NCBI GenBank assembly: GCA_027483445.1
Contig: JAIXUS010000008.1
Span: 60,487-124,486, forward strand
Direction of reading: 5' to 3'
From: Bacteroidota bacterium
Lineage (GTDB): Bacteria > Bacteroidota > Bacteroidia > M30B66
Length of the DNA stretch: 64,000 nucleotides
The notes under the pieces were generated by a model, which searched no databases, was not told the origin of the DNA, and saw only the letters and a program-made list of their open reading frames with translations. Both the position numbers and the translations under genes were made by a program. Of the stretch, positions 7,583-61,032 are shown one piece after another. The stretch's first letter is position 1. Each line of letters begins with the position of its first letter.

Positions 7583-9052
7583 TCAGAATCGGGTACCAAT
7601 CGAAAAAACGATGTTGTTGTTGCGAATTCGGGCGTTGGCCGGTTGAATATTTAATCCCGGTGCTGAGTAAGGGAAAAACATGAGGTCTTGACCTGAGAAT
7701 GCATACGAAATATCCATAAAAAAGTCGCCATTCCGATAGCCTCCACCCAAAGAATACACCTGATAGGCTTTTCCAAAAGCGGTGTTTTCGTAAGGCGTAC
7801 CAATTACTTGAACGCCGCCGCGGGCGTATAAATCGTTGAAACGTCCTTCCAGACCAATCCTTAGATTTCCGCTATTCCGAAAGCCATCTCTGATTTGGTC
7901 GTTAAATGCTGCATAAGAATCGGCGTCATCCATTAACCGAAGGCGCGAGTAATTGACCATTTCATAGTCGATGGAGAGCAAGCCCAGCTTCTTGTAAACA
8001 AAAGCGCCGCTAAAGGTGAAGCGCGCCGGATTTCTCAATTTATACCGATACTCTCCATCGGGAGAGGCATAATAAAATTCGCCGGTGGCCAGGCTGCTGC
8101 TCATTTCGGCGAAATACTCGGTACGTACTGTATAATCTAGCGGTAACAGAGCCGAAGCGCCGAGTCTGAAAAAGTCGTTAACCCGATAAATGGCACCTGC
8201 TCGTAGTGCTACTGATGTAGCCCGATCACTGAGTGTTTGTCGGTATTCGAGATTGTTAAATCCAGGCACTGAGTCGGTTTCGTTCCTCTCGGAGTACGTG
8301 TATTCACGCTCGTAAACAATGCGGCGAATGGCCAGGCTACCACCAACATACAAACGATTGCTGTAATTGCCGGCAAAGGCGATATTCGTTTCTCCGGCTC
8401 TCCCGCGGGTTTCAATCAATCCACGTTGGGTCATCCCCCCGTTAAGGGGACCATAAATACTGGTGTAACCACTGCCTGTAGTTTGATCAGGGTCGATGAG
8501 AAAGGTTTGGTAAGCCAGCGCAGACCCAAATGGGTTAAGGTTGCCCGGACTGGCATTTCCGGCATCGAGGATGAACTGATTAACCAGAGAGTTGTCTGGA
8601 TTGACACCTTTGAAACTCCAGCGTTCGCTAAGATTGCTTTGTTTGTTGTAACCGATAGCGAATGTGGTACTCAGCCAACCCTTGGTTTTCAGGCGGTTGA
8701 AGGAAGGTGAGTGGATGACCAAATGTAAATTCGGAATATTGAAGTTGAACTTTCGGTCGTCGGAGCTGCTTCCATAAAAGGTACTGCTTCCCGATGCATT
8801 GAAAATACTGGCGCTACCGGCGAATTCGCTCATTCTATACAATCCGATACCGGCCGGGTTTACGCTTACGCTTGAAAAATCGGCTCCAACTGCTCCGATT
8901 GCCCCTCCCATACCTTGCGAAAGTGCGGTGCCACCGGTTTGAGTTCGGCTATACCGCACCGCATCGTCGGTGTTTTGTGCCGGCAACTCCGAAATCAGAG
9001 CTGCCAGCACGATCATCAAAACACTATTTTTATTCATCATCCTGAATTTCAA
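7583..9052 (-). CDS. FadL/TodX-family outer-membrane beta-barrel protein (PorV-like fold)
   Basis: It has a signal peptide, a glycine-rich N-terminal hatch with an 'NPAGIG' (NPA) motif and a C-terminal aromatic residue (…GTRF). It lies 3 nt downstream of the lipoprotein gene on the same strand. Confidence 0.65.
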   Translation of the reverse strand: MKFRMMNKNSVLMIVLAALISELPAQNTDDAVRYSRTQTGGTALSQGMGGAIGAVGADFSSVSVNPAGIGLYRMSEFAGSASIFNASGSSTFYGSSSDDRKFNFNIPNLHLVIHSPSFNRLKTKGWLSTTFAIGYNKQSNLSERWSFKGVNPDNSLVNQFILDAGNASPGNLNPFGSALAYQTFLIDPDQTTGSGYTSIYGPLNGGMTQRGLIETRGRAGETNIAFAGNYSNRLYVGGSLAIRRIVYEREYTYSERNETDSVPGFNNLEYRQTLSDRATSVALRAGAIYRVNDFFRLGASALLPLDYTVRTEYFAEMSSSLATGEFYYASPDGEYRYKLRNPARFTFSGAFVYKKLGLLSIDYEMVNYSRLRLMDDADSYAAFNDQIRDGFRNSGNLRIGLEGRFNDLYARGGVQVIGTPYENTAFGKAYQVYSLGGGYRNGDFFMDISYAFSGQDLMFFPYSAPGLNIQPANARIRNNNIVFSIGTRF

Positions 9053-9055
9053 GGA

Positions 9056-11260
9056 TTAACGACGAGGTGAACTCATTCTGTTTCCGCCCGAAGGAGCACT
9101 TGGACGAGGGCTGCTACCCGGACTGCTCATGCGAGGGCTACTCTCCATGCGTGGTGAGCTCATTCTTGGACTACTCTCCATGCGCGGCGAGCTTATTCTT
9201 GGACTACTTTCCATGCGTGGGCTGGATTGCATGCGCTGTTCGCGTTGAGGTGTTTGATAGTTTTGATTCATGTTGCGCTGTTCGCGCTGAGGGCTTTGGT
9301 ACTGCTGAAAGTTATTTTGACGTTCAGGCTGACGTTGGTATTCCTGATAGTTGTTTCTTGGAACCGACTGTGGTTGGCGATACTGCTGTTGTTGCTGCGG
9401 CATCTGCTGGAAATTGTTCCTTGGTTGGCTTTCAGGTTGACGCATCTGCGGCTGCACCGGATTGCGTTGATCCATTTGAGGTTGACGGAAATCCTGCTGA
9501 CGGGGTTGTTGCTGAACAGGTTGATCGGGGCGAACCGATGGATTCATGGGCTGTCGTACATCGTTTGGACGAGTAATGGGCTGTGGTGAATACTGTTCGG
9601 GCCTTGTTGTAGGTTGCTGAGGACGCACAGTGGAAGGCTGCTGAGGGCGGACCACTTCGGGCGTATTATTCCGTATGGCGTTGTTGTAGTTGTAGTTAGG
9701 ATTGTACAACTCTTTCTGTGGAGTGCCCGTTACCGGCTGCCCGGGGCGCGATTGAAGTCCACCATTTGCAGGACTCACACCATTGCCGGGGTTTCGCAAA
9801 TCGTTGGATGGGCGTGTACCGAATGGTGAGCTTGGAGCATTGTCGGAAACTACCTGTGGTTGGTTAGAATTTACCGGAGCGCTGGTATAGTTGTCGGCTT
9901 TAGGGCGAACTACACCTTGCTGAATGAGCTGGTCTTTTCCGCTTCCACCTGAAGTAGCCGGGCTATACTGGTTTACTTTACCGGGCTGCTGAGCCTGAAT
10001 AGGCTGTGTGCCGGTTCCGGTTTGTTTTCCGGGCTGTTGAGCCTGTACAGGCTGAACTCCATTGGAAGTTTGTTTTCCGGGTTGCACAGGAGTGTTTATC
10101 TCCTGTTTTCCGGGACTTGATGGGTTTTGTACTCCACTCACGCCCGGTTTAGCACTGTTGTTCTGAACGTTGCCTGGAAGTTTTCCGCTACCAGAGTTAG
10201 CATTGTTTTGATTTACCGGGGTTGAGCCACCTTTTACATCTTGAGCTGTACCAAGGTTGTTCACCGGTTTTACAACATTACCTCCAGTTGAGTTTACCAC
10301 AGGCATTCCATCTTTTCCACTATGCGCTACAGAAGGCGTCATGCCGAGCTGCTTAGAAAAATTAGAAGTTAAGTTTGGAGCGGTCGTGAAGCCTGAACCT
10401 CCGCCAATACCTCCGGTGTTAGGACCAAATGATACGGGGGCGTTGAAGTTAAAGGTGTTATAATCAAAACTGTTGTAATACACAGGGTTATTGAACATGT
10501 TGTTCATCATCATGCCGTAGGCAAAACCATTGTTAAACCCTTGCTGATAGCCTAAACCGTAGTTGAACGGTGAATGGAAGAAGGGGTTGTAAGCGAATGG
10601 CGACATAAATGGATCGTAGCCCCAGTTATTCCAACGCCAAGGGTTGTTGAAATTCCAAGGATTGTTCCAAGGGTTGTTCCAGGAGTTGAATCCAATATTG
10701 AAGTGCCAGCCTGTGAAAGAGTTCCACCCAAAGTTGACCCCTGGAGTCCAGCTATTCCAACCCCAAGGTACAAATGGATTGAAGAAGGAGTAAGTGGAGT
10801 AGATTGAATTACCAAACATGAATGGATCATAATTGTACCAGTACATGTTTGTGAAGAAAGGGTCGTAATATCCAAAACCCGGCATTGGACGGTGGAAACG
10901 ACGTATGCGGGAAGCGAACATGTAATCGTAATAATCGTCCATGTCGTAATCCACGTCGTAGTAATTGTTTACGATAGGAGCGTCGCCGTTATTGTCGGGC
11001 ATTGAGGTATAGTCGTTTGCGCGCGCTCCGGATTGGTTATCGGGAGCATCAAAGCCGTCCATGTTTTCTACTGATTCGCGTGGGGCGGATTCAGCAGGTT
11101 GACTTTGATTGAGTTTTTTAAGTTGTCGGGCTTCCCTTCGAGCGTCAGCCAACGAATAATATCGGTCGTCGGCCTCAAAGCGAGCGGTGTTCCGGTTGGT
11201 GCTGCAGGAAGTGCTGAGGATCATCAACACAACTCCTGAAAGAATCGGTAGGAGTTTCAT
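9056..11260 (-). CDS. Low-complexity lipoprotein with three compositional zones: N/W/F/Y/P-rich, then Q/P/G-rich, then tandem [12 protein letters not shown]-terminal repeats
   Basis: The start is moved to the internal '[20 protein letters not shown]' (ATG verified at 11260-11258), giving a signal peptide and a Cys lipobox-like site. The rest of the protein has extreme compositional bias. Confidence 0.6.
9097..9228. repeat. Tandem 33-bp coding repeats encoding [11 protein letters not shown]
   Basis: Two near-identical 33-bp units, ctctccatgcg(t/c)gg(t/c)gagct(c/t)attcttggacta, are flanked by degenerate copies. Confidence 0.8.
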
Positions 11261-11372
11261 GGTACCGGGATTATGTAAAGTAAAAAGGGACATTCGGCGA
11301 AGGCAGCGGTTTTGTGTTAATTTTGCCGCTGACGACGCGATTTTTACAAATACCATACCACACAAAAAATAC

Positions 11373-12845
11373 ATGAGTAAAGTATTGGCAAGCCGTGAGG
11401 AAAATTACGCTCAATGGTACAACGATCTGGTAATCAAGGCCGATTTGGCCGATAACTCCGCTGTTCGCGGATGCATGGTCATTAAACCTTATGGTTACGC
11501 CATTTGGGAAAAAATGCAGCAGGCACTCGACCAGATGTTCAAAGACACCGGACATGTGAATGCCTATTTTCCTTTGTTCATTCCGAAATCGTTTTTAAGC
11601 AAAGAAGCGGCACATATTGAAGGTTTTGCCAAAGAGTGCGCTGTGGTAACACACTATCGTTTGAAGAATGATGAAAACGGAAAAGGCGTAATTGTAGATC
11701 CGGAAGCCAAACTTGAAGAGGAGCTCATTGTTCGACCAACATCTGAAACCATTATTTGGAACACCTACCGCGATTGGATTCAGTCGTACCGCGATTTACC
11801 ATTGTTGATTAACCAGTGGGCCAATGTTGTTCGCTGGGAGATGCGTACGCGGCTCTTTTTGCGTACGGCAGAGTTCCTTTGGCAGGAAGGGCATACCGCG
11901 CATGCCACAGCTGAAGAAGCGGTGGAGGAAACCCGTCGAATGCTGGACGTTTATGCCGATTTTGCGGAGAATTTCATGGCCATACCGGTGATTAAAGGTG
12001 TGAAAACGGCCAATGAACGTTTTGCCGGTGCAGTTGACACTTATTGCATCGAGGCGATGATGCAAGACGGTAAAGCCTTACAGGCCGGTACCTCGCACTT
12101 TTTGGGGCAGAACTTCGCCAAAGCATTTGAGGTGAAGTTTACCGGAAAAGATGGAAAACAAGACTACGTTTGGGCTACCTCATGGGGCGTTTCAACACGC
12201 TTGATGGGAGCGTTAATTATGACTCACAGCGACGATAAGGGCTTGGTTTTGCCTCCAAAATTGGCTCCTTTTCAGGTGGTTATCGTTCCAATTTATCGTT
12301 CCGACGAAGAATACCAGACGGTGTGCGATGCCGGGAGATCCATCAAAAAGGAGCTGGAGCGATTCGGCGTGCGGGTAAAACTCGACGACCGCGACACCCA
12401 CAAGCCCGGATTTAAATTTAATGAGTATGAGTTGCGTGGTGTTCCGCTCCGCATTGCCATTGGTCCGCGCGACGTGGCCAACGGAACAGTTGAGGTAGCC
12501 CGCCGCGATACCTTGGAAAAAGAAGTGCTGCAGTTGGCAGACCTGAGTAATAAGGTAGTACACTTGCTTGAGCAAATTCAGCAAAACTTGTATACAAAGG
12601 CTCTGTCGCACCGCGAACAAAACACCCACAGGGCAGACCATTGGGACGAGTTCATTCAAAAACTCGATATTGGAGGATTCGTTTATGCCCATTGGGATGG
12701 AACTGCCGAAACGGAAGAGAAAATTAAAACACTCACCAAGGCAACCATTCGTTGCATACCTTTAGGCAATCCTTCGGAGGAAGGAGCCTGTATCTTAACC
12801 GGAAAACCATCTACCCAACGGGTTATTTTTGCCCGTGCATATTGA
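11373..12845 (+). CDS. proS: Proline--tRNA ligase (archaeal/eukaryotic-type class II ProRS)
   Basis: The '[19 protein letters not shown]' N-terminus and class II aaRS motifs are present. The ATG is verified at 11373. It is transcribed divergently from the lipoprotein gene. Confidence 0.9.
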
Positions 12846-13934: not shown

Positions 13935-13935
13935 A

Positions 13936-13962
13936 CCCCTGCAAGCATAAAGCTCACAGGGG
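13936..13962 (-). terminator. Hairpin between convergent genes; likely a rho-independent terminator for the giant gene
   Basis: The stem cccctg...cagggg is followed on the minus strand by uuuauuuuuggg. Confidence 0.5.
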
Positions 13963-13981
13963 CAAACGGTTAAGGTTAGGT

Positions 13982-16900
13982 TTACCGTTTAATTATGGAT
14001 CTGCTGCCTTCGAATTCGATACGTTTGTCGTTGCTGATGTTTAAGTGATACACACCTGCCGGTAAGTCGTTAATGTCGAGGCGAATGCTGGAGCGGCCCT
14101 CTGAAATTTCGATGGGTGCCGACAAGAGTAACTGCCCGGCCGTGCTGAATATCGAAATGTTGGCCTTGGTTGCCTGATCGGCATTTAACTGTAGATCAAC
14201 AAATGCGCTTGCCGGATTTGGCGATAGTTGCAAGGTGTTGGTGGTGAATTGTTTACAGCTTACAAAAACAGGGTCGAAAATTTCGAAGTTTCCGTTAAAG
14301 TCGGTTTGACGCAAGCGCAGGTAACTTCCTTTTGAACCGCCAGGCTTAAGCGTAGCTTCATAACTTCTGGTGGTGTTTGAATTCCCTGCACCCTCGATAG
14401 CATATACCTTTTTCCAGCTGAGTGCATCTTCACTTTCTTCCAATTCGAACAAGCGATTATTAGCCTCTGATGCGGTGCTCCATCGAACCAAATACTGTTC
14501 TCCCAAGCATTCGGCTTCAAATGTTGCTAGTTTAATCGGTAAGGCATTGTTCTCTCTTGAACCACCTGTCCAAGTTGAAAATTCGGCAATATTACTCTTA
14601 ACAAGTTGGTTGTTGGTTGCATCGAGTGTTGCCCATTGAACATTCCAATACGCTCCATCGAAACGCCACAAGTCAAGCTCATTTTCGGCAATTGTTCCAA
14701 GTGGTGTGATAAGCTCATTGTCGAAGTAATTGAACTTTAGTGTTGCGTTGAGATTGCTGTTATTGGTTGGATGGATTTCATAGTACCTGTTAATCCCAAA
14801 ACCAGCATTGTAGGTTTGCTGTTGATGCCCTCTCACTACAGTAGTAAGCCCCATGTTGTTTGCACAGGTTAAGGTTGCCCCGAGCCCTGCCACATTCATA
14901 TCGCTAATGTTATTGAGGACACGCTGAGCGGTTATTGTGCCACTTGAACCCTGAATGCGGTTTTCGCTGTTTTCGTTAATTACCGTTCCTGTTGTACTCA
15001 GTTGGATGCTATTCCCATTTAGTTCAACATCGCCCGAAAGTAGATTGAGGTTCCCGAGTACGGTGATTGGAGTAGCCAAAAACAAGGCAAGGTCGCTCGC
15101 TGCTTTGTTAATGGTAAGGTTTGTAAATGTTGATGGCTGTCCCATTAACCGCGAAACTTGAGTTCCACTGAGTGTAACCGGACGACCATTCAAGCTTAGC
15201 TGTCCACCTACGTTTAAATCGCGCTGAATTTCAAGTGAGGCATCATTGTTTAGCGAAAGGCCAGAACCGGTGAGTATATTCAGGTTCGTTCCTGAAATAA
15301 AGTCGCCACTGAGTGTAGAGCTGCTATTGTTGATAATCATAGCCCCATTGCCTTGGGTAGCCCCACCTTGCGACTGAATGTTTCCAAAGACACTTAAGTT
15401 GTGGGTTGCAGGAATATTGATTATAACTCCCGAAGCCATTGACAAATCGCGACAAATGCCATTTGATCCGCTATGAATCGATGGCTGATTGGCCACCAAT
15501 CCTATAGTTACGTCATCGTTCATGTCTGGAACTTCGTTCGGCTGCCAATTGCCGGCAAGATTCCAGTTTGTATTCACATTTCCGGTCCAAATAAGTCCTT
15601 CAACAGCCTCTCCGGCCTGAAATAATCCAAATGCCGTTAATCCTGTGGTTTCGGTGAACAAAGGTTGGCCGGTGTTACTGCCATTCATGGTCCATAAGCC
15701 TCCTAGAAGTCGCGATGTTCTGAACGACAGTGGGTTGGCAGATGGGTCAAGGTCATTCGCGTTGAAGTTAAAACGTGCAGTGTAAGACGAGAAGCCAAGC
15801 AGCGACTGTGCACTCAGCGTCCATGTGCGGTTTACCGATTTTTGACTGTTAATGCCACTGAGGTACATGTCGGGATGATCGCCGGCGCTAGTGCTGGCCA
15901 TGAGACTGCCGCCATTGCCAATGGTACCGCTGAAACTAATTGCTACAGGGGCATACAGATTTTCATCGCCAACTTCAAAGTTTACAGCGGAAGTGGCTGA
16001 TTGAAGGCGTTTACGAAGATTGCCATGCACATAACTACTTGAGGATCCGCCCACCACAGTTCCCGACAATCCGATAATCAGTTCGTTGGCGTTGGTTTGT
16101 ACTAAACCTTGCATCAGGTTTAGGTGTAGAACATTCATTGAGGCTGTTAGCTCTTTTACACCGCCATTCACTATGCGAAGAGTGGTAAAATTGGTAGCTC
16201 CGCTGAGTGTTTGATTGGTTCCGTTCAATTCTACAATCCCCAGGCCTCCCGGAATAAAGCCACCCAAACCAACAAGGTTTGTCCAGTTTCCTTTTATCTG
16301 CATTTGGCGGTTAAATGTATTCGATACTTGGCCCGCCGAAATGAGCACATTGCCATTGATGATCAGATCGGCAGCCGGTAAGGTTTTAACACCTGAGCCG
16401 CTGAATGTTAAATGGTTGTAAACTGTTTGTACGGGAAGTGTAGCCGAAGAATTGGAACTATACTCAAAAGTTCCACCTACCGACGACACAAAGGCATTGT
16501 AGTTACCGCCCGGGAAAATAAAGGTGTTAGAGGGCGTTGGTGTAATTCTTACCAAACCGGTTCCGCTTACTACTCCAAAGTTGTGTCCGAACGTATTGCC
16601 GAGCACCAGATTGCCGTGGAGTACTGATGTTGGCGCGTTCTTATTGTTATCGGTAACGGTAATGGTGTGTCCGCTGGCGATGACAATATTTTTTCCGCTA
16701 GGCGCAACGGTTGCCGGCGGTCCATCATGTTGCAAGGTAATGTCGGTAGACCATGCGTTAAGGTCGTTCCAATTGCCTCCACTGGTAGCATTGCGGCTAA
16801 AGTAGGTTTGGATGATTCCAAACTCCGTGCTTTCGCCGGCCGTAAAGTCGCCGTTTAGATAGTTTACTGCACTCAGCGTTATTCTATCTGTGGCAGCATT

Positions 16901-19900
16901 TACAGTCGATGGAATTCCGCCCACAGGCACCCAAACGTTGTTGAAGTAACGACCAGCGCGGTAGTTCGCTTCTGTACCGTTGAGAGCATCACCGGGGAAG
17001 TAGGAGTATTGGTGGTTATAGGTTGCTCCAGGTGAGAAGCCGCTGCTAATCACACTCCAATAGAATTCGAGCTCAAGATTCGCAGCATCGGTTGTGGCAG
17101 GGTGTTTAATGTTTACCGGCTTCGCCGTGATGACACCTGCAGTTGAATTACCTGAAATACTGTATTCGGCTGGAGTGTACTTTAAGGTTGTTCCGAAAGG
17201 GAAATTGAAACTCATTTCTCCTGCCGCAAATTGTTTTCTCACTCCGGCATCCGACACTACACCATTCAACCGAATCATCATGTTTGGATTGATGGCTCCT
17301 GTTGCATTGGCATTCGCTGCAAAATTCAGCAGGAAGTTATTGATGTATAAAATGCCCTGGCTGAAATTGAGGTTCTCGTTGATGGTGAGTGCGGCGGTAA
17401 GCTCGGCACCCACCGAATTGGAAAGACGGAGCTTATCGATTGTAGCCTGTCCATTGCCCTGTATCAATTGATTGGTTGTTCCTCCAAGAACGAGGTAACC
17501 ACTTTCAGAGAAAACGTCATGCTGGCTTTGCACGTTGCCCAACACAGTCATGTTGTTGTTGCCTAAACTCAGGTCGCCTGCCGTTAGCGTTAAACTCCCG
17601 TTTACCCTTACCTGAGTATTGTTTTGCAATTGGATCGTAGCGGTAGGGTTGGTATTATGGATAACTAGGTTGGCAAAATTGGTCAGGTTGTTCAATACAC
17701 CAGTAATGAGCTGGCTTGAAGTAGAACCATTCATTGTTGTAATTTGCCCACTTGTTCCGGGTTTAAATCCTCCCGCATTAAGACCAATGGCACTGCTGGT
17801 ATGGGTGTTGGTGAAGTTTCCTCCAATATTGACATCAAAACCATTTGCTCTAAATTCGGAATTACCCTCAATAAAAAAATTGTTTAACACGTTGAGGGCC
17901 GCATTGGTGTTATTCACGAATTTATTGGTTGTTTGGCCATCGATACGGATATTGTAAAAAGGACTCAGAGAATACAGGTTAAATGAAGAGTTGGAAGGAG
18001 TATTGGCTGTTCCAATTACGACTTCACCTCCGGTCATTGAGAAGCTTGAAGGCGTTAAATAAATATCACCGAAAAAGTTGGATGGCAATCCTGAGCGATC
18101 GAGAATGAGCAAAGCGTTTTCCGTCATAGAAAACGAAGAGCCCTGGTTGAGAATTTCGAATTTTGCCCTGTCGAGATTGAAAGAACTCGCTGTTTCAGGG
18201 TTTTTTCCGCGTACAAGCACAGTGCTGTTTCCCGACTGCGAGTACTGCACGCTTCCTTGAACAGAGAATGTGCTTCTTCTGAACTGTCCATTGATGTTGA
18301 GCACACCATTGTTGCGCACATCTACCGATGGAGTTCCTGCAGCGCTGTATTCAAGGTCGTTGTGAGCTGTATTGCTTGCGGCACCGATGTTTACTGTACC
18401 ATCGAGAATTTCCAGTTGCCCGGCTAAAACTACATCTGAACCATTTGAGTTGTGTTGGGTGAGGTTTAGAATTGCTGATGGGTGGTTTACCGAAAGCTTT
18501 GTGCGCGCAGGAATTGAAAAGCTAAGATTGCTTTCATTGTTGATAAGCAACGAAACTGCCTTCGAAACACGGAATGTTCCGTTCATCAGGTTTAACCAGC
18601 TGCTGTTTGGCACCTGAATGTTACCGGCCATGGTTAGGTTGGTAAGCAGGGAGGCATCATCGCCTTTGTTGATGTGCAGCTGGAAGAAACTGGCAACAGC
18701 AGAAGCGTTGCTGCCATCAATAACAGCGGCCGAGTTTCCGGTCATCTCAATAATCCACTTTGAACTCTCGTTGCAACGCAGGTTACCGTTGATGCTCAAA
18801 TTTCCGTGCAGTTGGATGCGGTGCGATACGCCTGAAGCATGTGTGGCATTAACTGTAGCATCTGGACCTACAGTCATATTGCCAGCAATGTTCAGGATTT
18901 GTGCAAATTCACTTCTCGCGCTAAGTCGTCCTCCACTAACATTAAGGTTTCCACGAATTGTTATGGCATGCGAGGTATTTTCGGCCAGTGAGGCTTCTGC
19001 AGAAGGGGAATTACTGGTGATAGTAAGATCTTCGAAAATGGTAAGGTCGCGACCGGGCATGATGATTCGGTTGTTACTGCCAGGATTAATAATCAGGTTC
19101 CGATAGCTTGGAATTTCCATCAATGTGGGCGAAGCTGTTTGTGCAGGAATTGTGAAATTGCTGCCAACAGTGTAATATTCAGCAGTTCCACCATCGGGCT
19201 GGAAAAAGAGTCCAAAGTCGCCAGCAGGGAATTGTGCCGTTGCAGTGCTAGACGAAATGCGGATTTTACCGGCTCCTCCTGCGGTAGAGTAGGGTAGAGC
19301 CCCAAAGTTATTGCCTTGTGTGGTGCCTAAATCGAGCGTTGAGCCGGCATTAATGAGCAATGAGCCGGCAAGGGTGTTGTTTTGTGTAACAGTAACTGTG
19401 TGGTTAAACATAGAGCCATCACCAATAAAAACAGGAACATTCGCATTGGGAATGCTGCTTGATGCCGTTCCATTATGTCCAATGTTTGACCATGTTGCCG
19501 AGCTGTTCCAGTTTCCGTTTGCGCGGCTGTAAAATGGCACAACTGTTCCAAACGCTGCAGGTATACCGGCTGTATAATCGCCTTCAAATTTGTTAAACGG
19601 GCTAAACTGGATATCGTTTGTGCTCTCATTCACCGCGTTAACGTTGTTTACTGTTGTGTAAGCTATTTCGGCGTAGTTGTAGTACCCTGGAATGTAAGCT
19701 GTATTATCGGGTAGGTTCCCATAATTGAAGGTGAGGTTTATGGAGTTTGCTGCAATGCCACTAAACCCGTTTTGGTTGAGTTTCCAATAGTATGAGAATG
19801 CATTGGGGTTGGTAACATACAATTGCTGCGCGTTAACAGGTCGAAGGTCAATAGTTCCTATTGTTGCAGGAGCAGTTGTAAATGCTACTGTAGCCGGAGT

Positions 19901-22900
19901 GTAGTTGGTGCCGGTACCGAATGGAAAGATGAAACTAAGAGCAGCCGGAGCATAGGTTTTTGCAATACCTCCATCGGAGAGGAATCCACGGGTTTTGATA
20001 AATCGGGTTGATGAAAATCCGCCAGCTCCGGCAGTAATGGTAGCGGTTGCATCGACCGTTAATCGGAAGTTTTGAATGTCGAAAACCCTTTCTGTGTTGA
20101 GGTTTAGGTTGGCGTTTACCCTAAATCCTGCCGTGGCAGCGGTTTGTACAGATCCAGTACTTCCACCTGAATTCGAGAGGGTTAGGTTCCGTATTTCACC
20201 GTCACCGTCACCGAAGATAGTTTGTAAGTTACTACCGCTCAAGTTAATGGCTGCGGTGCCTGTTCCATAAATTCGGGTGTTGTTTGTAACGTTCGCATCC
20301 ACATTCAGATTTTTATTGGCATGGTTGAGTTCACCCATATTCACCAATAAATTTCCTCGAATATTCAGCTGAGTTGCCGCTCCAGTAATCTGAAGTGTAC
20401 TATTTCCAGGCTTATCTAATACAAGTGAGTTTATCCCAGTATTTGTATTTGGCTGATAAGGGCTTGCAGTACTTCCGCTTTCAACTTTCATTCCCCACAC
20501 GTAAATACCCATTGCTGTGTTACCTACATATGAAGTTTGGCAGCTTCCATTACCTAGGGCGAGGCGCGCTTGGTATTGATTGCTACCATTTGATGTTGCG
20601 CTAATCCGATACCAACCATCGGCGAGGGCTGTAATTGAAGTACCCTGAATTCCGCCGGATGTTGAGGTTACACTGCCGCCGCCGGTAAGATTAAAGTTAG
20701 CAACGGCCACCGAAGCGCCTGGGCCAACCTGTAAAGAAACACAGTTCCTTCCGGCCGGTTTAACATGAATAGATACTGTTACCTGACCGCCAGCACTTGG
20801 TATTGTTGGTGTACTAAAGCGGTGAAGGCCGTTTTCGGTTGTTTCATTCAGGAGTTCGGCACTTTGTACTCCATTGGGTGAAATCCCCGAATTTTGAGTT
20901 GAAGTGAGACGTTCGAAGGAATAATTGGTTCCCGGTATAATTGCTTCAGGTCCATTAATCAAGCTAGATCCACCAGAACTCTCAAAAAGGGTAACACCAT
21001 TCAATGCGAAATTCTGTGTTGAATTACTGATAAATCGAATAGAGTTGTTCCCGGAAATGAGGGTAGAATTGGAATTGATATTCAAATTTCCGGCAATTAT
21101 CAGGTCCTGATCCATCGCATTCAAAGCAGGAGAATTGCTGCTTAAAATGGTTAGATCGTTTAAAATTGTTAAGTCCGACGCAGGTACGTTGGTGCGGGTT
21201 GCTTCAGAGCCTGTTATCGACCAGTCGACAGAATTCAATCGAACCTGTGCAGTTCCGGCAGTAGCTCTGCCAATGTTGACCGTATGCAAAGGCACAGTGG
21301 AGGTAACATCGAGGTGTATGTTTCCAGTTGTATTGAAGTTAACGGTACCACCACTCACCTCATAGTTTGCAGAAGTTGAGGCTACCATGAATCCCCCGTT
21401 TGGCGTAATACCGCCTGTTGAGGTTCGGGTGATTGTAATAGTGCCTCCCGACATTTTGAACACATTTTCGGGATATGGAAGCGAGAAAATTGAATAAAAG
21501 CTTTGCTCGGTACCCCCATTTCCAAGAAGATTAAGCGTTCCGGAAGTCATTTCGAAAGAACCCCTGTGGGTTGTTGCGGTTACCGAAGTTCTGATGATTC
21601 CGGCAACAACGGTACCACCAAAAATTTCAATTGCACCGGATTCACGGATCACAATAGCCTTTTGCCCGTTCTGACACGTAAATGTACCCGAAGTAATTCG
21701 AATTGTTCCGTAAGGAACTACTGCACCACCTAAACCACCATCGGTAATGTTTGCGCCATCAATCCATAAACGTGGAACCGCAGTGGGGCTTCCCAAATCG
21801 AAGTTTCCACCTCCACCTCCAATAAGCACGGGTATATTGATGTTTTCGCCAAAACGTAAAGTGCCATTTCCGTTGACCTGGAAAGTGTTTCCTCGATTTA
21901 CAAAAGAGACATTTGCCCCGGAAGCGGCAGCTACAAGAAGCTGAAAGCCGGTTGATTTCGTTGAGCTGAATCCATAAAATGTGGTGTTACTTCCTGCATT
22001 TAGCTGGATGCTTGTATTGGCATTACTACCCTGTATATTCAGGTTTGCAGCGCCATTTGTGGCATTGGCGTAATCGGCACTATTGGTAAAGTCAATGGTT
22101 CCGCTGCTGGTAAGGTTGCCATGAATATTAATCGTATGAACAGCATTGAAATTACCGGTTAGCCATGTGCATCCGCCACCTAAAGCAACATTGCGCATAA
22201 TGGTAATTGTTCGTGGGGTGGTTGAGTTGCCTACAACAAAAGTATTAGTGCCTGAACCGGTGCGGTCAAGGCTTAAGTTACCATTAATGGTGAGGTTATG
22301 ATTCAGAATCAGGCTCGTAGCTGTTGAAGTACTGTTCGTGTACTCGAGGTTGTTGTAAGTGTTTAGTGTACTATTCAACTCCAGTGGCGTTGCTCCAATG
22401 TTGTAGTATTCAATTGTTCCTCCTGTGGAACTCACGAATTGGGTGTAATTGCCGTTAGGCAGTGATGTGGATGACAACCGGAGTTTCCCTTCACCGCTGA
22501 TGGGACCAAATTGATGGCCTGAAGAGCTGCCTAAGTCGAGCACTCCGCCTTGTTGAATGGTAACTGAGCCAACTGTTGTTGCCGCAGCCATATTGTTTAC
22601 AGTACGGCCATTGAGGATTATTATTTGATCTCCGGCTTGAGGTACCATCGGGCTTACCAAGGTGTTGCCTGAAGGGTCGGTTGTCCAGGTGTTGGCTGAG
22701 TTCCAATCGCCCGATTGATATGAATACAAGGCTGAACGCATGGTTGGGTCGATGGCTGTCCACGAACCACTTAAGATGGTGGTACCGTTTGAGGTAAACG
22801 GATTAGAGCCCGGGGCGGAAGGAGAGTTTGGTATGATTAGATTATTGCCATCCCACAAGCGTGGAGAATACAGCGAAACCGAGCCAATTACTTCTTCAGG

Positions 22901-24598
22901 ATTGAAGTTGAAGCGAACGTTCGCGCTTATTCCTGACATGTTAACTGTTTCGATTAACCAGTGCTTTGTGAGCGCATTGTTGAAGTAGGGAATGTTTGGT
23001 TGGCGTGTAGGTGTGGCTTTAACGTAAAGATTGGCGGTTCCAACAAGTGTAGCAGTTAAAGATTGAAGGGTCATCGGCGAATAAAATCCACCGGATCCAA
23101 CGGGGTATAAGCCTGCACTCACCATGTCGGTAGTAAAGTCGGCGGTGCTTAGACCTTCTTTAATTAAAAAGCCTTCGCCATCGGTAATAAAATATCGTGT
23201 TGCGCTGAATGTACCCGAGAGAGAGCCTTGGGGTGCGATTTTCATGGAGTTATCGCCCAATGAAACGTAATAGCTTCCGGCGGCAGTTAGATTTACATTT
23301 CCGGCCGCTCTAATGGCTCCTCCTAAACTTTTTACTCCACTACCCGCGAAAAAAAGTGACTGGTAATTGGTGCTTGGAAAAACCTCCTGATCGCCCATTC
23401 TATTGTATTGCACCCGTGCCGAAACGTTGTCAGATTCAAGGCTTCCAATACTGTTGTGTTCTCCTCCCAGATTTAAGATGTGTGCCGCTCCATTCATGCG
23501 GATGGTTCCATTTCCCGAAAGGTCATCGTTAACGGTAACAGTTCTTGCCGCAGTGCCAAAGTTGAACACACCACCCGAAACTGTTAGTTTTCCTGTTGTG
23601 ATGTTATTGTTGAGAAGGCTTAAGCTTGAGCCGGCTTTGCTGATGATGATTTCTTCAAATGTTAATGCCGTATTCGTGGTGAGACTTGCTGCAAATGAGC
23701 CTGTAAATGTTTGAATTCCGGTTAGCACCAACGTTCCATTGGTTCTGATGAAATCGCCGGCTACTTCAATGGACGGAATCGTTTTTGTTCCTGCAGCGGT
23801 AAAGCTGATGTGGAAATAGCTTCCCGCTCGAATTTCCTGCGTCGAGCCTGCATATTCAACTGTATTTCCGGTGGCAGTTACATTAAATGTACCGGCCGAT
23901 TGCATGGGCTGGTTAGCTCCAAGGTACCGCAGTCGGACATTGGAAGCATTCAAAAAGGTAGAATTCACCGCAGTGCCATCCAACGAAACAGGAATTACCA
24001 ATCCACTCGAGTGCAAGCAGTTGTTAATGAGTGTTATATTTCCTTGGATAATGACATTGTCGATGGAAATTGAGCCGCTTCCGCTAAGTGTTTGAGAAGT
24101 GGTCGAGAAGCGAGCCGTGCTTGAAGCCGTTAACGCGATAATGCCACCATTTGAAATGCCATTGCGAAATTCCAGTTGAGCTTCAACGCCTGTGTTATTG
24201 TCTAATCGGCCTGATGATGAGATACTGACCGGTCCGCGGAAGACTTTTGGCTGGCCCACAGCAATCACTCTGAAAGTTCCGTTGATTGAGGTGGTGCTAT
24301 TTATTTGCACAGCTGATGCGCCAACCGATAAAGTTCTACTGGCGTTTATAGTAAGGTTGTTTATTTCGACGGCGGCATCAATTGTCATGTTGTGGTTAAT
24401 CACCACATTGTCGTTGGGGCCGGGTGTTCCTGCTGGAGTCCAGACCTGAGCTGACCACGCATTTGTTGAGGTGCTGGTATACGTTACCTGTGCTCCTGCC
24501 TTAAATGTCATACCTAGAATTAGAATAGGCAGAAGGAAAGTAATGGCCAGGGAAGGCGACTTTTTAAAGACGTTTATTAGAGTAGAATTTTGGATCAT
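13982..24598 (-). CDS. Giant (3538 aa) secreted surface protein with a T9SS C-terminal sorting domain, probably an adhesin
   Basis: It has a signal peptide. The body is extremely Asn/Thr/Ser/Gly-rich and beta-solenoid-like, with internally duplicated modules. The last roughly 80 aa contain the 'SPNPA...VDL...AGVYHLNI' T9SS CTD signature. Confidence 0.85.
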   Translation of the reverse strand: MIQNSTLINVFKKSPSLAITFLLPILILGMTFKAGAQVTYTSTSTNAWSAQVWTPAGTPGPNDNVVINHNMTIDAAVEINNLTINASRTLSVGASAVQINSTTSINGTFRVIAVGQPKVFRGPVSISSSGRLDNNTGVEAQLEFRNGISNGGIIALTASSTARFSTTSQTLSGSGSISIDNVIIQGNITLINNCLHSSGLVIPVSLDGTAVNSTFLNASNVRLRYLGANQPMQSAGTFNVTATGNTVEYAGSTQEIRAGSYFHISFTAAGTKTIPSIEVAGDFIRTNGTLVLTGIQTFTGSFAASLTTNTALTFEEIIISKAGSSLSLLNNNITTGKLTVSGGVFNFGTAARTVTVNDDLSGNGTIRMNGAAHILNLGGEHNSIGSLESDNVSARVQYNRMGDQEVFPSTNYQSLFFAGSGVKSLGGAIRAAGNVNLTAAGSYYVSLGDNSMKIAPQGSLSGTFSATRYFITDGEGFLIKEGLSTADFTTDMVSAGLYPVGSGGFYSPMTLQSLTATLVGTANLYVKATPTRQPNIPYFNNALTKHWLIETVNMSGISANVRFNFNPEEVIGSVSLYSPRLWDGNNLIIPNSPSAPGSNPFTSNGTTILSGSWTAIDPTMRSALYSYQSGDWNSANTWTTDPSGNTLVSPMVPQAGDQIIILNGRTVNNMAAATTVGSVTIQQGGVLDLGSSSGHQFGPISGEGKLRLSSTSLPNGNYTQFVSSTGGTIEYYNIGATPLELNSTLNTYNNLEYTNSTSTATSLILNHNLTINGNLSLDRTGSGTNTFVVGNSTTPRTITIMRNVALGGGCTWLTGNFNAVHTINIHGNLTSSGTIDFTNSADYANATNGAANLNIQGSNANTSIQLNAGSNTTFYGFSSTKSTGFQLLVAAASGANVSFVNRGNTFQVNGNGTLRFGENINIPVLIGGGGGNFDLGSPTAVPRLWIDGANITDGGLGGAVVPYGTIRITSGTFTCQNGQKAIVIRESGAIEIFGGTVVAGIIRTSVTATTHRGSFEMTSGTLNLLGNGGTEQSFYSIFSLPYPENVFKMSGGTITITRTSTGGITPNGGFMVASTSANYEVSGGTVNFNTTGNIHLDVTSTVPLHTVNIGRATAGTAQVRLNSVDWSITGSEATRTNVPASDLTILNDLTILSSNSPALNAMDQDLIIAGNLNINSNSTLISGNNSIRFISNSTQNFALNGVTLFESSGGSSLINGPEAIIPGTNYSFERLTSTQNSGISPNGVQSAELLNETTENGLHRFSTPTIPSAGGQVTVSIHVKPAGRNCVSLQVGPGASVAVANFNLTGGGSVTSTSGGIQGTSITALADGWYRISATSNGSNQYQARLALGNGSCQTSYVGNTAMGIYVWGMKVESGSTASPYQPNTNTGINSLVLDKPGNSTLQITGAATQLNIRGNLLVNMGELNHANKNLNVDANVTNNTRIYGTGTAAINLSGSNLQTIFGDGDGEIRNLTLSNSGGSTGSVQTAATAGFRVNANLNLNTERVFDIQNFRLTVDATATITAGAGGFSSTRFIKTRGFLSDGGIAKTYAPAALSFIFPFGTGTNYTPATVAFTTAPATIGTIDLRPVNAQQLYVTNPNAFSYYWKLNQNGFSGIAANSINLTFNYGNLPDNTAYIPGYYNYAEIAYTTVNNVNAVNESTNDIQFSPFNKFEGDYTAGIPAAFGTVVPFYSRANGNWNSSATWSNIGHNGTASSSIPNANVPVFIGDGSMFNHTVTVTQNNTLAGSLLINAGSTLDLGTTQGNNFGALPYSTAGGAGKIRISSSTATAQFPAGDFGLFFQPDGGTAEYYTVGSNFTIPAQTASPTLMEIPSYRNLIINPGSNNRIIMPGRDLTIFEDLTITSNSPSAEASLAENTSHAITIRGNLNVSGGRLSARSEFAQILNIAGNMTVGPDATVNATHASGVSHRIQLHGNLSINGNLRCNESSKWIIEMTGNSAAVIDGSNASAVASFFQLHINKGDDASLLTNLTMAGNIQVPNSSWLNLMNGTFRVSKAVSLLINNESNLSFSIPARTKLSVNHPSAILNLTQHNSNGSDVVLAGQLEILDGTVNIGAASNTAHNDLEYSAAGTPSVDVRNNGVLNINGQFRRSTFSVQGSVQYSQSGNSTVLVRGKNPETASSFNLDRAKFEILNQGSSFSMTENALLILDRSGLPSNFFGDIYLTPSSFSMTGGEVVIGTANTPSNSSFNLYSLSPFYNIRIDGQTTNKFVNNTNAALNVLNNFFIEGNSEFRANGFDVNIGGNFTNTHTSSAIGLNAGGFKPGTSGQITTMNGSTSSQLITGVLNNLTNFANLVIHNTNPTATIQLQNNTQVRVNGSLTLTAGDLSLGNNNMTVLGNVQSQHDVFSESGYLVLGGTTNQLIQGNGQATIDKLRLSNSVGAELTAALTINENLNFSQGILYINNFLLNFAANANATGAINPNMMIRLNGVVSDAGVRKQFAAGEMSFNFPFGTTLKYTPAEYSISGNSTAGVITAKPVNIKHPATTDAANLELEFYWSVISSGFSPGATYNHQYSYFPGDALNGTEANYRAGRYFNNVWVPVGGIPSTVNAATDRITLSAVNYLNGDFTAGESTEFGIIQTYFSRNATSGGNWNDLNAWSTDITLQHDGPPATVAPSGKNIVIASGHTITVTDNNKNAPTSVLHGNLVLGNTFGHNFGVVSGTGLVRITPTPSNTFIFPGGNYNAFVSSVGGTFEYSSNSSATLPVQTVYNHLTFSGSGVKTLPAADLIINGNVLISAGQVSNTFNRQMQIKGNWTNLVGLGGFIPGGLGIVELNGTNQTLSGATNFTTLRIVNGGVKELTASMNVLHLNLMQGLVQTNANELIIGLSGTVVGGSSSSYVHGNLRKRLQSATSAVNFEVGDENLYAPVAISFSGTIGNGGSLMASTSAGDHPDMYLSGINSQKSVNRTWTLSAQSLLGFSSYTARFNFNANDLDPSANPLSFRTSRLLGGLWTMNGSNTGQPLFTETTGLTAFGLFQAGEAVEGLIWTGNVNTNWNLAGNWQPNEVPDMNDDVTIGLVANQPSIHSGSNGICRDLSMASGVIINIPATHNLSVFGNIQSQGGATQGNGAMIINNSSSTLSGDFISGTNLNILTGSGLSLNNDASLEIQRDLNVGGQLSLNGRPVTLSGTQVSRLMGQPSTFTNLTINKAASDLALFLATPITVLGNLNLLSGDVELNGNSIQLSTTGTVINENSENRIQGSSGTITAQRVLNNISDMNVAGLGATLTCANNMGLTTVVRGHQQQTYNAGFGINRYYEIHPTNNSNLNATLKFNYFDNELITPLGTIAENELDLWRFDGAYWNVQWATLDATNNQLVKSNIAEFSTWTGGSRENNALPIKLATFEAECLGEQYLVRWSTASEANNRLFELEESEDALSWKKVYAIEGAGNSNTTRSYEATLKPGGSKGSYLRLRQTDFNGNFEIFDPVFVSCKQFTTNTLQLSPNPASAFVDLQLNADQATKANISIFSTAGQLLLSAPIEISEGRSSIRLDINDLPAGVYHLNISNDKRIEFEGSRSIIKR

Positions 24599-24936: not shown

Positions 24937-25536
24937 TTATTGATTTTGAACTAAAAGTCGTGTGTTGAAGGTATCTTCTCCTCGCTGAACGCAAAGCAAA
25001 TATATTCCGTCTGTTAATGAGGAGACGTCTAATACAGGCTCGCTTTGGTTGTCAATTTTTGGTGAAAAACGACGTCCATCCGGAGCATACAAATAGTAAA
25101 GGACTTCTTTTGGGTTCCAGTTGTTGGGAAGGAGGATTTTAGATAATCGTTGGGTTGGATTAGGAAAAACTTGTAATTGTTGAGTTTGATTAAATACTGT
25201 AACGGCTAATGTATCGCTGTAAATAGTTCCGTTTTCAACAATTCTAAAATACCACTGTCCTGGGTCAGCGTTTGTTTGGGACCAACTGTAGCTTAATTCC
25301 TCATCTGTGCTACCGCAGATTCCTGCATACCTGAAAATCTCGTAAAATTGGATTAAATCGTTGGAGGCCTGAATTGTTAAATCCGAGCAGGTGCTCCCTT
25401 TTGCGGTAACCCAAGAGTGCAGAATAACAGGTTGGTTGTAGGAAGCTTCGTATCTGATGACCGTTGCTTGCGCATGAATTTTTGCCTGAAATTGAAGGCA
25501 GCAAACAAGCAAAGTGAATCCCAGCGATTTTATCAT
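24937..25536 (-). CDS. Small secreted protein with a T9SS C-terminal domain
   Basis: It has a signal peptide and a C-terminal 'VFPNPTQ...DGIYLLCVQ' Por-secretion CTD motif. Its start overlaps the upstream stop by 1 nt (TAATG). Confidence 0.65.
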   Translation of the reverse strand: MIKSLGFTLLVCCLQFQAKIHAQATVIRYEASYNQPVILHSWVTAKGSTCSDLTIQASNDLIQFYEIFRYAGICGSTDEELSYSWSQTNADPGQWYFRIVENGTIYSDTLAVTVFNQTQQLQVFPNPTQRLSKILLPNNWNPKEVLYYLYAPDGRRFSPKIDNQSEPVLDVSSLTDGIYLLCVQRGEDTFNTRLLVQNQ

Positions 25537-60978: not shown

Positions 60979-61032
60979 AGCACGGTTCAAATTCTTTACA
61001 AAATAACGCTGCAAACAAGGAGGGCATTTCCG

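What the first reader, a model, noticed from the sequence alone, without database searches (positions are those of the whole stretch)
13982..24598. 3538-aa T9SS-secreted giant surface protein with internally duplicated modules
This single 10.6-kb ORF has a signal peptide, a canonical C-terminal T9SS sorting domain (SPNPA...AGVYHLNI) and a body of N/T/S/G-rich beta-solenoid-like repeats. Two long modules are clearly paralogous: about aa 1530-1830 and about aa 2440-2740. Both contain '...SDGG/AG(I/V)(A/R)K...(L/M)SF(I/N)FPFGT...YTPA...' followed about 130 aa later by 'G(N/G)NWN..(A/N).WS(N/T)'. A third partial copy of the WN...W segment lies near aa 630 ('GDWNSANTW'). A region around aa 1250-1370 ('GWYRISATSNG...GIYVWGMKVESG') looks like an inserted lectin/fibre-like domain. 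The architecture is that of SprB/RemA-like gliding or adhesion proteins, but the modules do not obviously match the SprB-repeat consensus known to me.
Basis: partly seen in the sequence, partly recalled or inferred. Interest (0 to 1): 0.6.

Follow-up and report, generated by a model that had tools for sequence, protein, structure and literature searches.

The report
Giant T9SS-secreted beta-helix surface fibre protein
This is one real 3538-residue gene for a very long surface fibre of a freshwater Bacteroidota bacterium, built from five beta-helix rods joined by an undescribed connector domain and carrying a sugar-binding head borrowed from phage-like particles; it is an ordinary kind of protein (a secreted adhesin) from a large family that no database has named.

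Summary
Window 13982-24598 (-) is one intact ORF of 3538 aa. It has a Sec-type leader and a type A T9SS sorting domain (aa 3459-3526), and 43% of its residues are N, G, S or T.

The 'lectin-like' region is aa 1202-1387. It is homologous to the capsule-binding head-spike fibre of the Rhodobacter gene transfer agent and to phage tail proteins. It is a true insertion, absent at exactly that point from most orthologues.

The sandwich-plus-cap unit occurs in about 3200 protein clusters, nearly all of the best 150 being giants with 2-8 copies. No Pfam or NCBIfam model covers it.

The protein is not SprB-like: it has no SprB repeats, no type B sorting domain and no PorP/SprF neighbour. The most likely function is a statically anchored or released polysaccharide-binding adhesin. 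I rate it a new variant of a known kind, of moderate interest.

The parts
24491..24598 (-). Sec signal peptide, aa 1-36 (…KAGA|QVTY)
   Evidence: Read directly from the translation: a basic n-region, a hydrophobic core and an AxA site followed by Gln. No predictor was run.
23234..24490 (-). Beta-helix segment 1, aa 37-455, opening with the cap motif W48-x5-W54
   Evidence: The cap part of the junction HMM matches aa 35-77 (iE 5e-5). aa 359-566 is paralogous to 1395-1625.
22568..23233 (-). Junction unit 1, aa 456-677: ZU5-like beta-sandwich plus cap motif W632-x5-W638 of the next helix
   Evidence: HMM iE 1.6e-57; alignment A2.
20996..22567 (-). Beta-helix segment 2, first part, aa 678-1201
   Evidence: Co-linear with orthologues P0001 and P0002 up to aa 1201. 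In the AF2 model, aa 1100-1205 form short-strand coils with pLDDT mostly 77-92 apart from one low-confidence loop.
20438..20995 (-). Inserted GTA head-spike-fibre / phage tail-protein-like domain, aa 1202-1387 (putative glycan-binding jelly-roll)
   Evidence: NF048003 E 2.8e-21; PDB sequence 6tb9_F3 (Rcc01080) residues 82-264, E 1e-14; PHROG 5939 tail protein, 9.5e-24; phage tblastn hits. Absent from P0001, P0002, L002, L004, L006, L007 and L008, with the break exactly at 1201|1388. Present in L001, L003, P0018 and P0022.
20045..20437 (-). Beta-helix segment 2, second part, aa 1388-1518
19364..20044 (-). Junction unit 2, aa 1519-1745 (FPFGT…YTPA…YYW…GDYTAG, then GNWNSSATW)
17318..19363 (-). 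Beta-helix segment 3, aa 1746-2427
   Evidence: Paralogous to aa 624-1081; conserved in orthologues P0003-P0006.
16631..17317 (-). Junction unit 3, aa 2428-2656
   Evidence: HMM iE 2.8e-72; 32-38% identical to unit 2.
16070..16630 (-). Beta-helix segment 4, aa 2657-2843
   Evidence: Position between junction units 3 and 4; matches P0007 and P0015.
15467..16069 (-). Junction unit 4, aa 2844-3044 (cap W3012-x5-W3018)
   Evidence: HMM iE 5e-30.
14861..15466 (-). Beta-helix segment 5, aa 3045-3246
   Evidence: Follows cap motif 5. Inferred from composition and position only.
14549..14860 (-). Degenerate fifth sandwich, aa 3247-3350
   Evidence: Partial HMM match to positions 66-167, iE 2.7e-6; aligned in A1.
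14225..14548 (-). Pre-CTD spacer domain, aa 3351-3458
   Evidence: Together with the CTD, 31% identical to the C-terminal region of P0007. Resembles the N-terminal part of the neighbouring 199-aa CTD protein. No family match.
13985..14224 (-). Type A T9SS C-terminal sorting domain, aa 3459-3538
   Evidence: PF18962 at 34.5 bits (cut-off 27) and TIGR04183 at 28.7 bits (cut-off 23).
13935..13963 (-). Terminator-like hairpin with T-tract just after the stop codon
   Evidence: 12-pair stem with 7 GC pairs, followed by TTATTTTT.

Best explanation
The gene encodes a Sec-exported, T9SS-translocated giant surface protein.

Export and anchoring (inferred). After leader cleavage at AGA|Q, the type A C-terminal domain is recognised by the T9SS and its PorV shuttle. 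The domain is then removed, and the protein is either statically anchored on the outer membrane or released.

Shape of the mature protein (from structure prediction). It is a segmented rod of five right-handed parallel beta-helix segments. Each segment is nucleated by a 'W-x(4-5)-W…P…V-I' cap. The segments are separated by ~170-residue ZU5-like beta-sandwich junctions. These lack a conserved nucleophile and therefore most likely act as rigid or hinge connectors, or as interaction surfaces, rather than as self-cleaving modules.

Ligand binding (inferred). In the second helix a loop carries an inserted jelly-roll domain. It is homologous to the capsule-polysaccharide-binding head-spike fibre of RcGTA and to phage tail or baseplate receptor-binding proteins. 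This is the probable ligand-binding head, displayed sideways from the stalk.

Function (inferred). The protein probably mediates adhesion of this freshwater Bacteroidota cell to polysaccharide-coated surfaces, such as particles, algal or cyanobacterial sheaths, or other bacteria.

What is shown and what is inferred. Shown: ORF integrity, the sorting domain, the module plan, homology of the insert, its status as an insertion, the family's size, and the predicted folds. Inferred: the secretion route, the anchoring, the connector role of the junctions, and glycan binding.
For: Secretion system:
- ORF and type A sorting domain.
- PorX, the T9SS response regulator, is encoded 10 kb away (E 1.5e-257).
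- Type A sorting domains use PorV and give static anchoring or release (PMC12618676; abstract of PMC9143113).

Folds:
- Only 76% conservation of the one candidate Thr across 501 near-full-length junction copies (of 578 detected) argues against catalysis.

Insert:
- NF048003, E 2.8e-21.
- Rcc01080, E 1e-14.
- PHROG tail protein, 9.5e-24.
- Tail and tail-fibre genes of Azospirillum, Rhodobacter and Rhizobium phages.
- Rcc01080 binds capsule polysaccharide experimentally (PMC10218006).
- The insertion point is exact in orthologues.

Conservation:
- Orthologues keep four junctions plus the sorting domain.
- A 60%-identical orthologue differs by only 3 gap positions in 3526 residues.
- Family size: 3231 clusters.
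Against: - There is no experimental evidence for expression, secretion or binding.
- The insert part of the structural model has low confidence (pLDDT 25-64), so its fold assignment rests mainly on sequence homology.
- The homologous part of Rcc01080 is not resolved experimentally; only residues 2-10 are (PMC7296036). The binding site and specificity are therefore unknown.
- Beta-helices are also the scaffold of many glycan-degrading enzymes, so a catalytic role is not excluded.
- Most orthologues lack the insert, so the family's general function cannot depend on it.
- The signal peptide was judged by eye only.
Confidence: 0.65

Rival explanations
1. It is a SprB-type motile gliding adhesin, loaded on the gliding track and propelled along the cell.
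For: Giant size, repetitive body, T9SS dependence and Bacteroidota origin. PorX lies nearby.
Against: No SprB-repeat match at E<=1. The sorting domain is type A, not type B. No PorP/SprF-type gene is found among the neighbours scanned, roughly 6100-31000. In F. johnsoniae, swapping SprB's type B domain for a type A domain gave static or released protein (PMC12618676).
Confidence: 0.06
2. It is primarily an enzyme: one or more beta-helix segments act as a polysaccharide lyase or hydrolase (depolymerase), as in phage tailspikes, and the insert serves as its carbohydrate-binding module.
Confidence: 0.15
3. The junction domains are active ZU5/GAIN-like autoproteolytic modules. They cut the polypeptide into non-covalently held fragments, allowing shedding or force-dependent release.
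For: Fold similarity to ZU5, GAIN and FIIND domains in two models. ZU5-superfamily autopeptidases have been proposed in large bacterial surface proteins (PMC3482391). An aromatic-Thr dipeptide (GD[YF]TAG) lies in the last sandwich strand, which is topologically reminiscent of HF|S and HL|T sites.
Against: That Thr is only 76% conserved, with Val or Ile as alternatives, in 501 near-full-length copies. There is no CxH, HFS or HL[ST] motif, and Cys is almost absent (10 of 3538 residues). No sequence-level match to ZU5 or GPS models was found. Ankyrin ZU5, the best structural match, is itself non-proteolytic.
Confidence: 0.07
4. The repeats or the ORF are an assembly or annotation artefact, such as collapsed or chimeric repeats or a pseudogene.
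For: None found.
Against: There are no DNA-level repeats inside the gene. The copies are only 25-38% identical at protein level. The reading frame is intact over 10.6 kb. Co-linear orthologues exist in many independent assemblies.
Confidence: 0.01

Closest known systems
RemA of Flavobacterium johnsoniae (type A CTD, lectin-bearing T9SS adhesin)
   Same: Large T9SS cargo with a type A (TIGR04183) sorting domain and a carbohydrate-binding type domain. Handled by PorV (PMC12618676).
   Different: No SUEL-type lectin or other RemA sequence feature was detected. The body here is beta-helix plus ZU5-like junctions, and the lectin-type domain is of the GTA/phage fibre family. A direct RemA comparison was not run.
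SprB gliding adhesin
   Same: Multi-thousand-residue repetitive T9SS surface protein of Bacteroidota.
   Different: No SprB repeats, no type B sorting domain and no adjacent SprF/PorP gene.
Beta-helical passenger domains of type V secreted adhesins (UpaB, Ag43, TibA, HMW1, EtpA) and phage tailspikes
   Different: Different secretion system. The helix is broken into five segments by beta-sandwich junctions. There is no sequence homology.
RcGTA head spike fibre Rcc01080 and related phage tail or baseplate proteins (PHROG 5939; Pa193 gp46, E217)
   Same: aa 1202-1387 aligns with Rcc01080 residues 82-264 (E 1e-14), including the GWYR…G(I/L)Y(V/L)WG.(K/Q).E.G motif. Rcc01080 binds capsule polysaccharide (PMC10218006).
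   Different: Here the domain is an internal insertion in a cellular surface protein. The N-terminal (I/L)-G repeat peptide that anchors the fibre on the capsid spike base is not part of the match. Identity is only about 30-36%.
ZU5 / GAIN subdomain B / FIIND beta-sandwiches
   Different: Identity of 4-9%; no autoproteolytic motif; no Pfam match. Used here as a repeated connector between beta-helices.
RTX adhesins with ligand-binding domains emerging from 'split' stalk domains (Aeromonas hydrophila, PMC12077191)
   Same: Same design principle: a ligand-binding domain inserted into, and projecting from, a repetitive stalk (abstract seen).
   Different: Different stalk fold (Ig-like versus beta-helix), different secretion system (T1SS) and different binding domains.

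Membership tests
T9SS type A CTD cargo | C-terminal domain matching TIGR04183 / PF18962 above the curated cut-offs, at the extreme C-terminus | tested here: met
   28.7 bits (cut-off 23) and 34.5 bits (cut-off 27), at aa 3459-3526 of 3538.
T9SS type A CTD cargo | N-terminal Sec signal peptide | tested here: met
   By inspection only: KK n-region, 16-residue hydrophobic core, AGA|Q site. No predictor is available.
T9SS type A CTD cargo | Host genome encodes a T9SS | tested here: met
   PorX equivalog, E 1.5e-257, at 35131-36684. A second type A CTD protein lies at 24937-25536. Core translocon genes are not in the window.
T9SS type A CTD cargo | Secretion and CTD removal shown experimentally | not testable with these tools
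   Needs proteomics or genetics.
SprB family | SprB repeats (Pfam SprB repeat model) | tested here: not met
   A whole-protein Pfam scan at E<=1 lists only Por_Secre_tail.
SprB family | Type B CTD (TIGR04131) | tested here: not met
   An NCBIfam scan at E<=1 lists only TIGR04183 and NF048003.
SprB family | Adjacent PorP/SprF-type shuttle gene | tested here: not met
   The neighbours are a cupin, an unknown 228-aa ORF, ProRS, a 199-aa CTD protein, a methyltransferase and GyrB. ORF 7583-9052 gives only a sub-threshold FadL-like hit.
Right-handed parallel beta-helix (pectin-lyase-like fold) | Three-stranded coils stacked into a right-handed solenoid | tested here: met
Right-handed parallel beta-helix (pectin-lyase-like fold) | Sequence match to Beta_helix / PbH1 / G8 models | tested here: not met
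   Only a sub-threshold G8 hit (E 0.029, 14.7 bits against a cut-off of 22.9) at aa 652-689.
ZU5/GAIN/FIIND superfamily | ZU5-type beta-sandwich fold | tested here: met
ZU5/GAIN/FIIND superfamily | Autoproteolytic site (HFS / HL|T / CxH) | tested here: not met
   No such motif in alignment A2. The candidate Thr is 76% conserved among 501 near-full-length copies.
ZU5/GAIN/FIIND superfamily | Sequence-profile match | tested here: not met
   No Pfam hit. A profile search of PDB sequences gives only weak GspD hits, E 0.01-0.02.
GTA head-spike fibre domain (NF048003) | HMM match above the curated cut-off | tested here: met
   76.9 bits against a cut-off of 36; model positions 22-176 of 182.
GTA head-spike fibre domain (NF048003) | N-terminal (I/L)-G repeat peptide that docks on the capsid spike base | tested here: not met
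   The alignment starts at Rcc01080 residue 82. The anchor is residues 2-10 (PMC7296036).
GTA head-spike fibre domain (NF048003) | Binding of capsular polysaccharide | not testable with these tools
   Shown for Rcc01080 only (PMC10218006).

The most novel reading that the evidence does not exclude
The repeated junction is a prokaryotic, T9SS-associated branch of the ZU5/GAIN fold. It would act as a mechanical or processing module (force-sensitive unlatching or slow self-cleavage) that segments a beta-helical fibre. The phage/GTA receptor-binding head would have been captured by the cell to bind the capsule of other microbes. Together these would make the protein a cell-cell attachment device, for an epibiont or predator, rather than a generic adhesin.
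Probability: 0.08. Interest if true: 0.75.

Novelty: new variant of a known kind. Interest (0 to 1): 0.38.

Why it matters
Giant T9SS adhesins are a known kind, so the gene as such is not surprising. Three points give it some value:

1. The beta-helix plus ZU5-like junction supermodule defines a very large family: about 3200 clusters at 50% identity, nearly all of the best 150 being 2000-5500-aa proteins, found in Bacteroidota and Ignavibacteria/Kapaibacteria. No Pfam or NCBIfam model covers it, and word-indexed searches almost miss it. A curated domain model would annotate thousands of the largest genes in FCB-group genomes.

2. A ZU5/GAIN-like fold used as a repeated connector in bacterial surface fibres is, as far as my searches show, undescribed. 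It bears on the bacterial origin of that fold.

3. The lineage-specific insertion of a GTA/phage receptor-binding domain into a cellular adhesin is a clean case of domain exchange between virus-like particles and host surface proteins. It also gives a testable handle on ligand specificity.

Tried and rejected
- Whole-protein homologue search: timed out.
- Word-indexed homologue searches with the module and with the junction profile: only 8 hits each, which wrongly suggested a rare family. The exhaustive HMM search corrected this.
- Homologue search with the insert: nothing. Viral-contig scan with the insert: nothing. No deep alignment was therefore available for the insert, and its AF2 model is poor.
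- Plain self-BLAST of the whole protein: only the identity hit. A windowed, masked BLAST was needed.
- Hydrophobicity autocorrelation to find a fixed coil period in the beta-helix segments: nothing above the shuffled controls. The coils are irregular.
It worked with the closer set A3.
- The upstream 199-aa CTD protein as a conserved partner: rejected. It is absent between the methyltransferase and the giant gene in the syntenic locus L002.
- Autoproteolysis at GD[YF]|TAG: considered and downgraded after the family-wide conservation count.
- Foreign origin of the insert judged from composition: only marginal. GC3 is 0.344 against a gene mean of 0.443 (sd 0.043), and overall GC is the same.
- G8 and amnionless relationship of the cap motif: sub-threshold only.
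Full report
**1. Observation**

The window holds a single uninterrupted ORF at 13982..24598 on the minus strand, with an ATG start, encoding 3538 aa. N, G, S and T together make up 43% of its residues, and Cys is nearly absent at 10 residues.

Pfam finds only the T9SS sorting domain, PF18962, at aa 3460-3526 (34.5 bits, cut-off 27). NCBIfam finds the type A sorting domain TIGR04183 (28.7 bits, cut-off 23) and, unexpectedly, NF048003 'phage head spike fiber domain' at aa 1227-1387 (E 2.8e-21).

The N-terminus, MIQNSTLINVFKKSPSLAITFLLPILILGMTFKAGA|QV, has the three regions of a Sec leader and an AxA site followed by Gln. This was read by eye; no predictor is available. A terminator-like hairpin with a T-tract follows the stop codon at 13935-13963.

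**2. Internal duplication**

- aa 1409-1698 vs 2328-2611: 32% identity, E 7.5e-31.
- aa 1733-1822 vs 2644-2726: 38% identity.

It also shows further copies:
- aa 609-771 vs 2581-2753: 35% identity, E 1.8e-17.
- aa 624-860 vs 1689-1965.
- aa 359-566 vs 1395-1625.
- aa 821-1081 vs 1926-2217.

An iterated HMM places the ~225-aa repeated unit at aa 456-677, 1519-1745, 2428-2656 and 2844-3044. There is a degenerate partial copy at aa 3247-3350, and the cap portion alone occurs at aa 35-77.

Each unit consists of a beta-sandwich (FP.G…Y[TS]P…YYW…GD[YF]TAG) followed by the motif G.W….W…P…V.I. The W-x5-W motif occurs at aa 48, 632, 1697, 2610 and 3012.

The gene has no DNA-level repeats and the copies are only 25-38% identical, so an assembly artefact is excluded.

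**3. Structure of the body**

**4. Are the junctions self-cleaving?**

ZU5, GAIN and FIIND domains are known for autoproteolysis. ZU5-superfamily autopeptidases have been proposed in large bacterial surface proteins, defined by a C-terminal CxH motif (PMC3482391).

I aligned 578 junction copies from 151 proteins. Over the 501 near-full-length copies, the highly conserved positions are:
- G1561: 97%.
- Y1566: 92%.
- P1568: 95%.
- W1605: 97%.
- S1691: 90%.
- W1697: 91%.
- W1703: 98%.
- P1717: 92%.

The only Thr in a suggestive place, in GD[YF]TAG on the last sandwich strand, is 76% conserved and is replaced by Val or Ile. There is no CxH, HFS or HL[ST] motif. I therefore read the junction as a non-catalytic ZU5-like connector. 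Self-cleavage remains a low-probability alternative.

**5. The insert**

Residues 1202-1387 align with several phage and GTA proteins:
- Residues 82-264 of Rcc01080, the RcGTA head spike fibre (PDB sequence 6tb9_F3), at E 1e-14, including the GWYR…SY.G….G.Y.WG…E.G motif.
- PHROG 5939 'tail protein', E 9.5e-24.
- Tail or tail-fibre genes of Azospirillum phage Cd, Rhodobacter phages RcapMu and RcWaterboi, Rhizobium phages and cyanophages, at 28-37% identity.

Rcc01080 is the flexible fibre that binds the Rhodobacter capsule. Only its residues 2-10 are resolved (PMC7296036). Fluorescent fusions bind better to capsulated cells (PMC10218006).

Orthologues show that this is a true insertion. P0001, P0002, L002, L004, L006, L007 and L008 align up to aa 1201 and resume at aa 1388, with only a few residues between. 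The domain is present at the same place in L001 (88% identity) and L003 (52%), and in 2 of the 150 best family representatives (P0018 and P0022). Its GC3 is at the low edge of the gene's range, which is only marginal evidence.

**6. Family and distribution**

Word-indexed searches found only 8 relatives. The exhaustive HMM search of 1.84 billion representatives found 3231 proteins at E<=1e-3 and 607 at E<=1e-30. The best 150 are 1917-5493 aa long (median 3530) and carry 2-8 junction copies each.

Source names, where any exist, are 'hypothetical', 'beta strand repeat-containing' or 'PKD domain-containing'. Members scanned in Pfam show only a sorting domain, with or without a PKD domain. At least 62 of the 150 have a recognisable type A sorting domain by a home-made HMM.

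Genome loci place the family in:
- freshwater Bacteroidota MAGs (L001-L008);
- Pseudochryseolinea flava (L010);
- Bacteroidales MAGs;
- Ignavibacteria and Kapaibacteria, with up to 7 junctions.

L001 is the nearest relative: 90% identity over aa 599-3538, with neighbouring proteins 80-98% identical. L002 shares the gene order methyltransferase - giant gene - 228-aa ORF - ProRS. A 60%-identical orthologue cluster has nine members, eight of them 3539 aa long, from JGI, ENA and Logan assemblies. It differs from this protein by only 3 gap positions over 3526 residues, which indicates strong constraint on length.

**7. Context**

The neighbourhood is housekeeping: ProRS, a cupin, a SAM methyltransferase and GyrB. 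PorX, the T9SS response regulator, lies at 35131-36684 (E 1.5e-257).

A 199-aa protein with its own type A sorting domain lies just upstream at 24937-25536. It is not conserved there in L002. No PorP/SprF-type gene was seen.

**8. Interpretation**

Type A sorting domains are collected by PorV and lead to static anchoring or release. SprB's type B domain, with its cognate SprF, is what targets cargo to the gliding track (PMC12618676; abstract of PMC9143113). With no SprB repeats and a type A domain, this protein fails the SprB membership tests.

It works more like RemA or like beta-helical autotransporter adhesins: a long stalk that displays a binding domain. The design is a ligand-binding domain projecting from an interrupted stalk repeat. 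This parallels RTX adhesins (PMC12077191, abstract).

My best explanation (confidence about 0.65) is a T9SS-secreted, surface-anchored or released segmented beta-helix fibre with a phage/GTA-type glycan-binding head. The rivals are:
- an enzyme (depolymerase) role for the helices: 0.15;
- self-cleaving junctions: 0.07;
- a SprB-type motile adhesin: 0.06;
- an artefact: 0.01.

**9. Novelty and score**

The kind of protein, a giant T9SS adhesin, is known. The module set is not curated anywhere, and the ZU5-like connector plus the GTA-fibre insertion are new variations. I rate it a new variant of a known kind, with interest 0.38.

Noticed in passing
window 24937-25536 (-): A 199-aa ORF directly upstream of the giant gene has its own signal-like N-terminus and a type A T9SS sorting domain (PF18962 28.5 bits; TIGR04183 30.4 bits). 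Its N-terminal part resembles the pre-CTD spacer of the giant protein family (24% identity to the C-terminus of the L002 orthologue). It is not present at this position in syntenic locus L002.
   Followed up: partly
window 35131-36684 (-): PorX, the T9SS response regulator (NF052313, E 1.5e-257), is encoded about 10 kb from the giant gene.
   Followed up: partly
window 9056-11374 (-): A 772-aa ORF with no Pfam or NCBIfam match ends in a low-complexity tail of SSPRM(E/S) repeats (…[32 protein letters not shown]…). It is conserved at 93% identity in L001. Its 5' end overlaps the annotated ProRS ORF start (11187).
   Followed up: no
window 7583-9052 (-): A 489-aa ORF with a signal-like N-terminus and a C-terminal aromatic residue (…IGTRF), as in outer-membrane beta-barrels. 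It gives only a sub-threshold FadL/TodX hit (E 0.006). It is not a PorP/SprF match.
   Followed up: partly
window 11187-12845 (+): The mechanical ProRS ORF starts at a GTG that overlaps the upstream gene. The L002 orthologue aligns only from residue 57, so the true start is probably further downstream.
   Followed up: no
window 58033-61014 (-): A 993-aa fusion-like protein: an N-terminal GH3 beta-N-acetylhexosaminidase-like part (aa 90-390) and a C-terminal PBP4B / class C beta-lactamase-like part (aa 593-972).
   Followed up: no
P0018 cluster (nine members, eight of 3539 aa) versus the window protein: A 60%-identical orthologue aligns over 3526 residues with only 3 gap positions. This is unusually strict length conservation for a repetitive giant protein.
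   Followed up: partly
L017, L018 and L019 (Kapaibacteria/Ignavibacteria-type MAGs; L018 is labelled 'uncultured Hyphomicrobiales'): Family members of 4139 aa carry seven junction units. The L018 record is labelled Hyphomicrobiales but carries the same junction layout as the Kapaibacterium locus L017, and its matches mirror those of the Ignavibacteria locus L015, which suggests a mis-binned or mislabelled MAG.
   Followed up: no
method note (versus 38): The word-indexed protein search returned 8 relatives, while the exhaustive HMM search returned 3231. The low-complexity N/G/S/T-rich composition seems to defeat the 5-mer index, so 'rare family' calls from that tool are unreliable for proteins like this.
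   Followed up: yes
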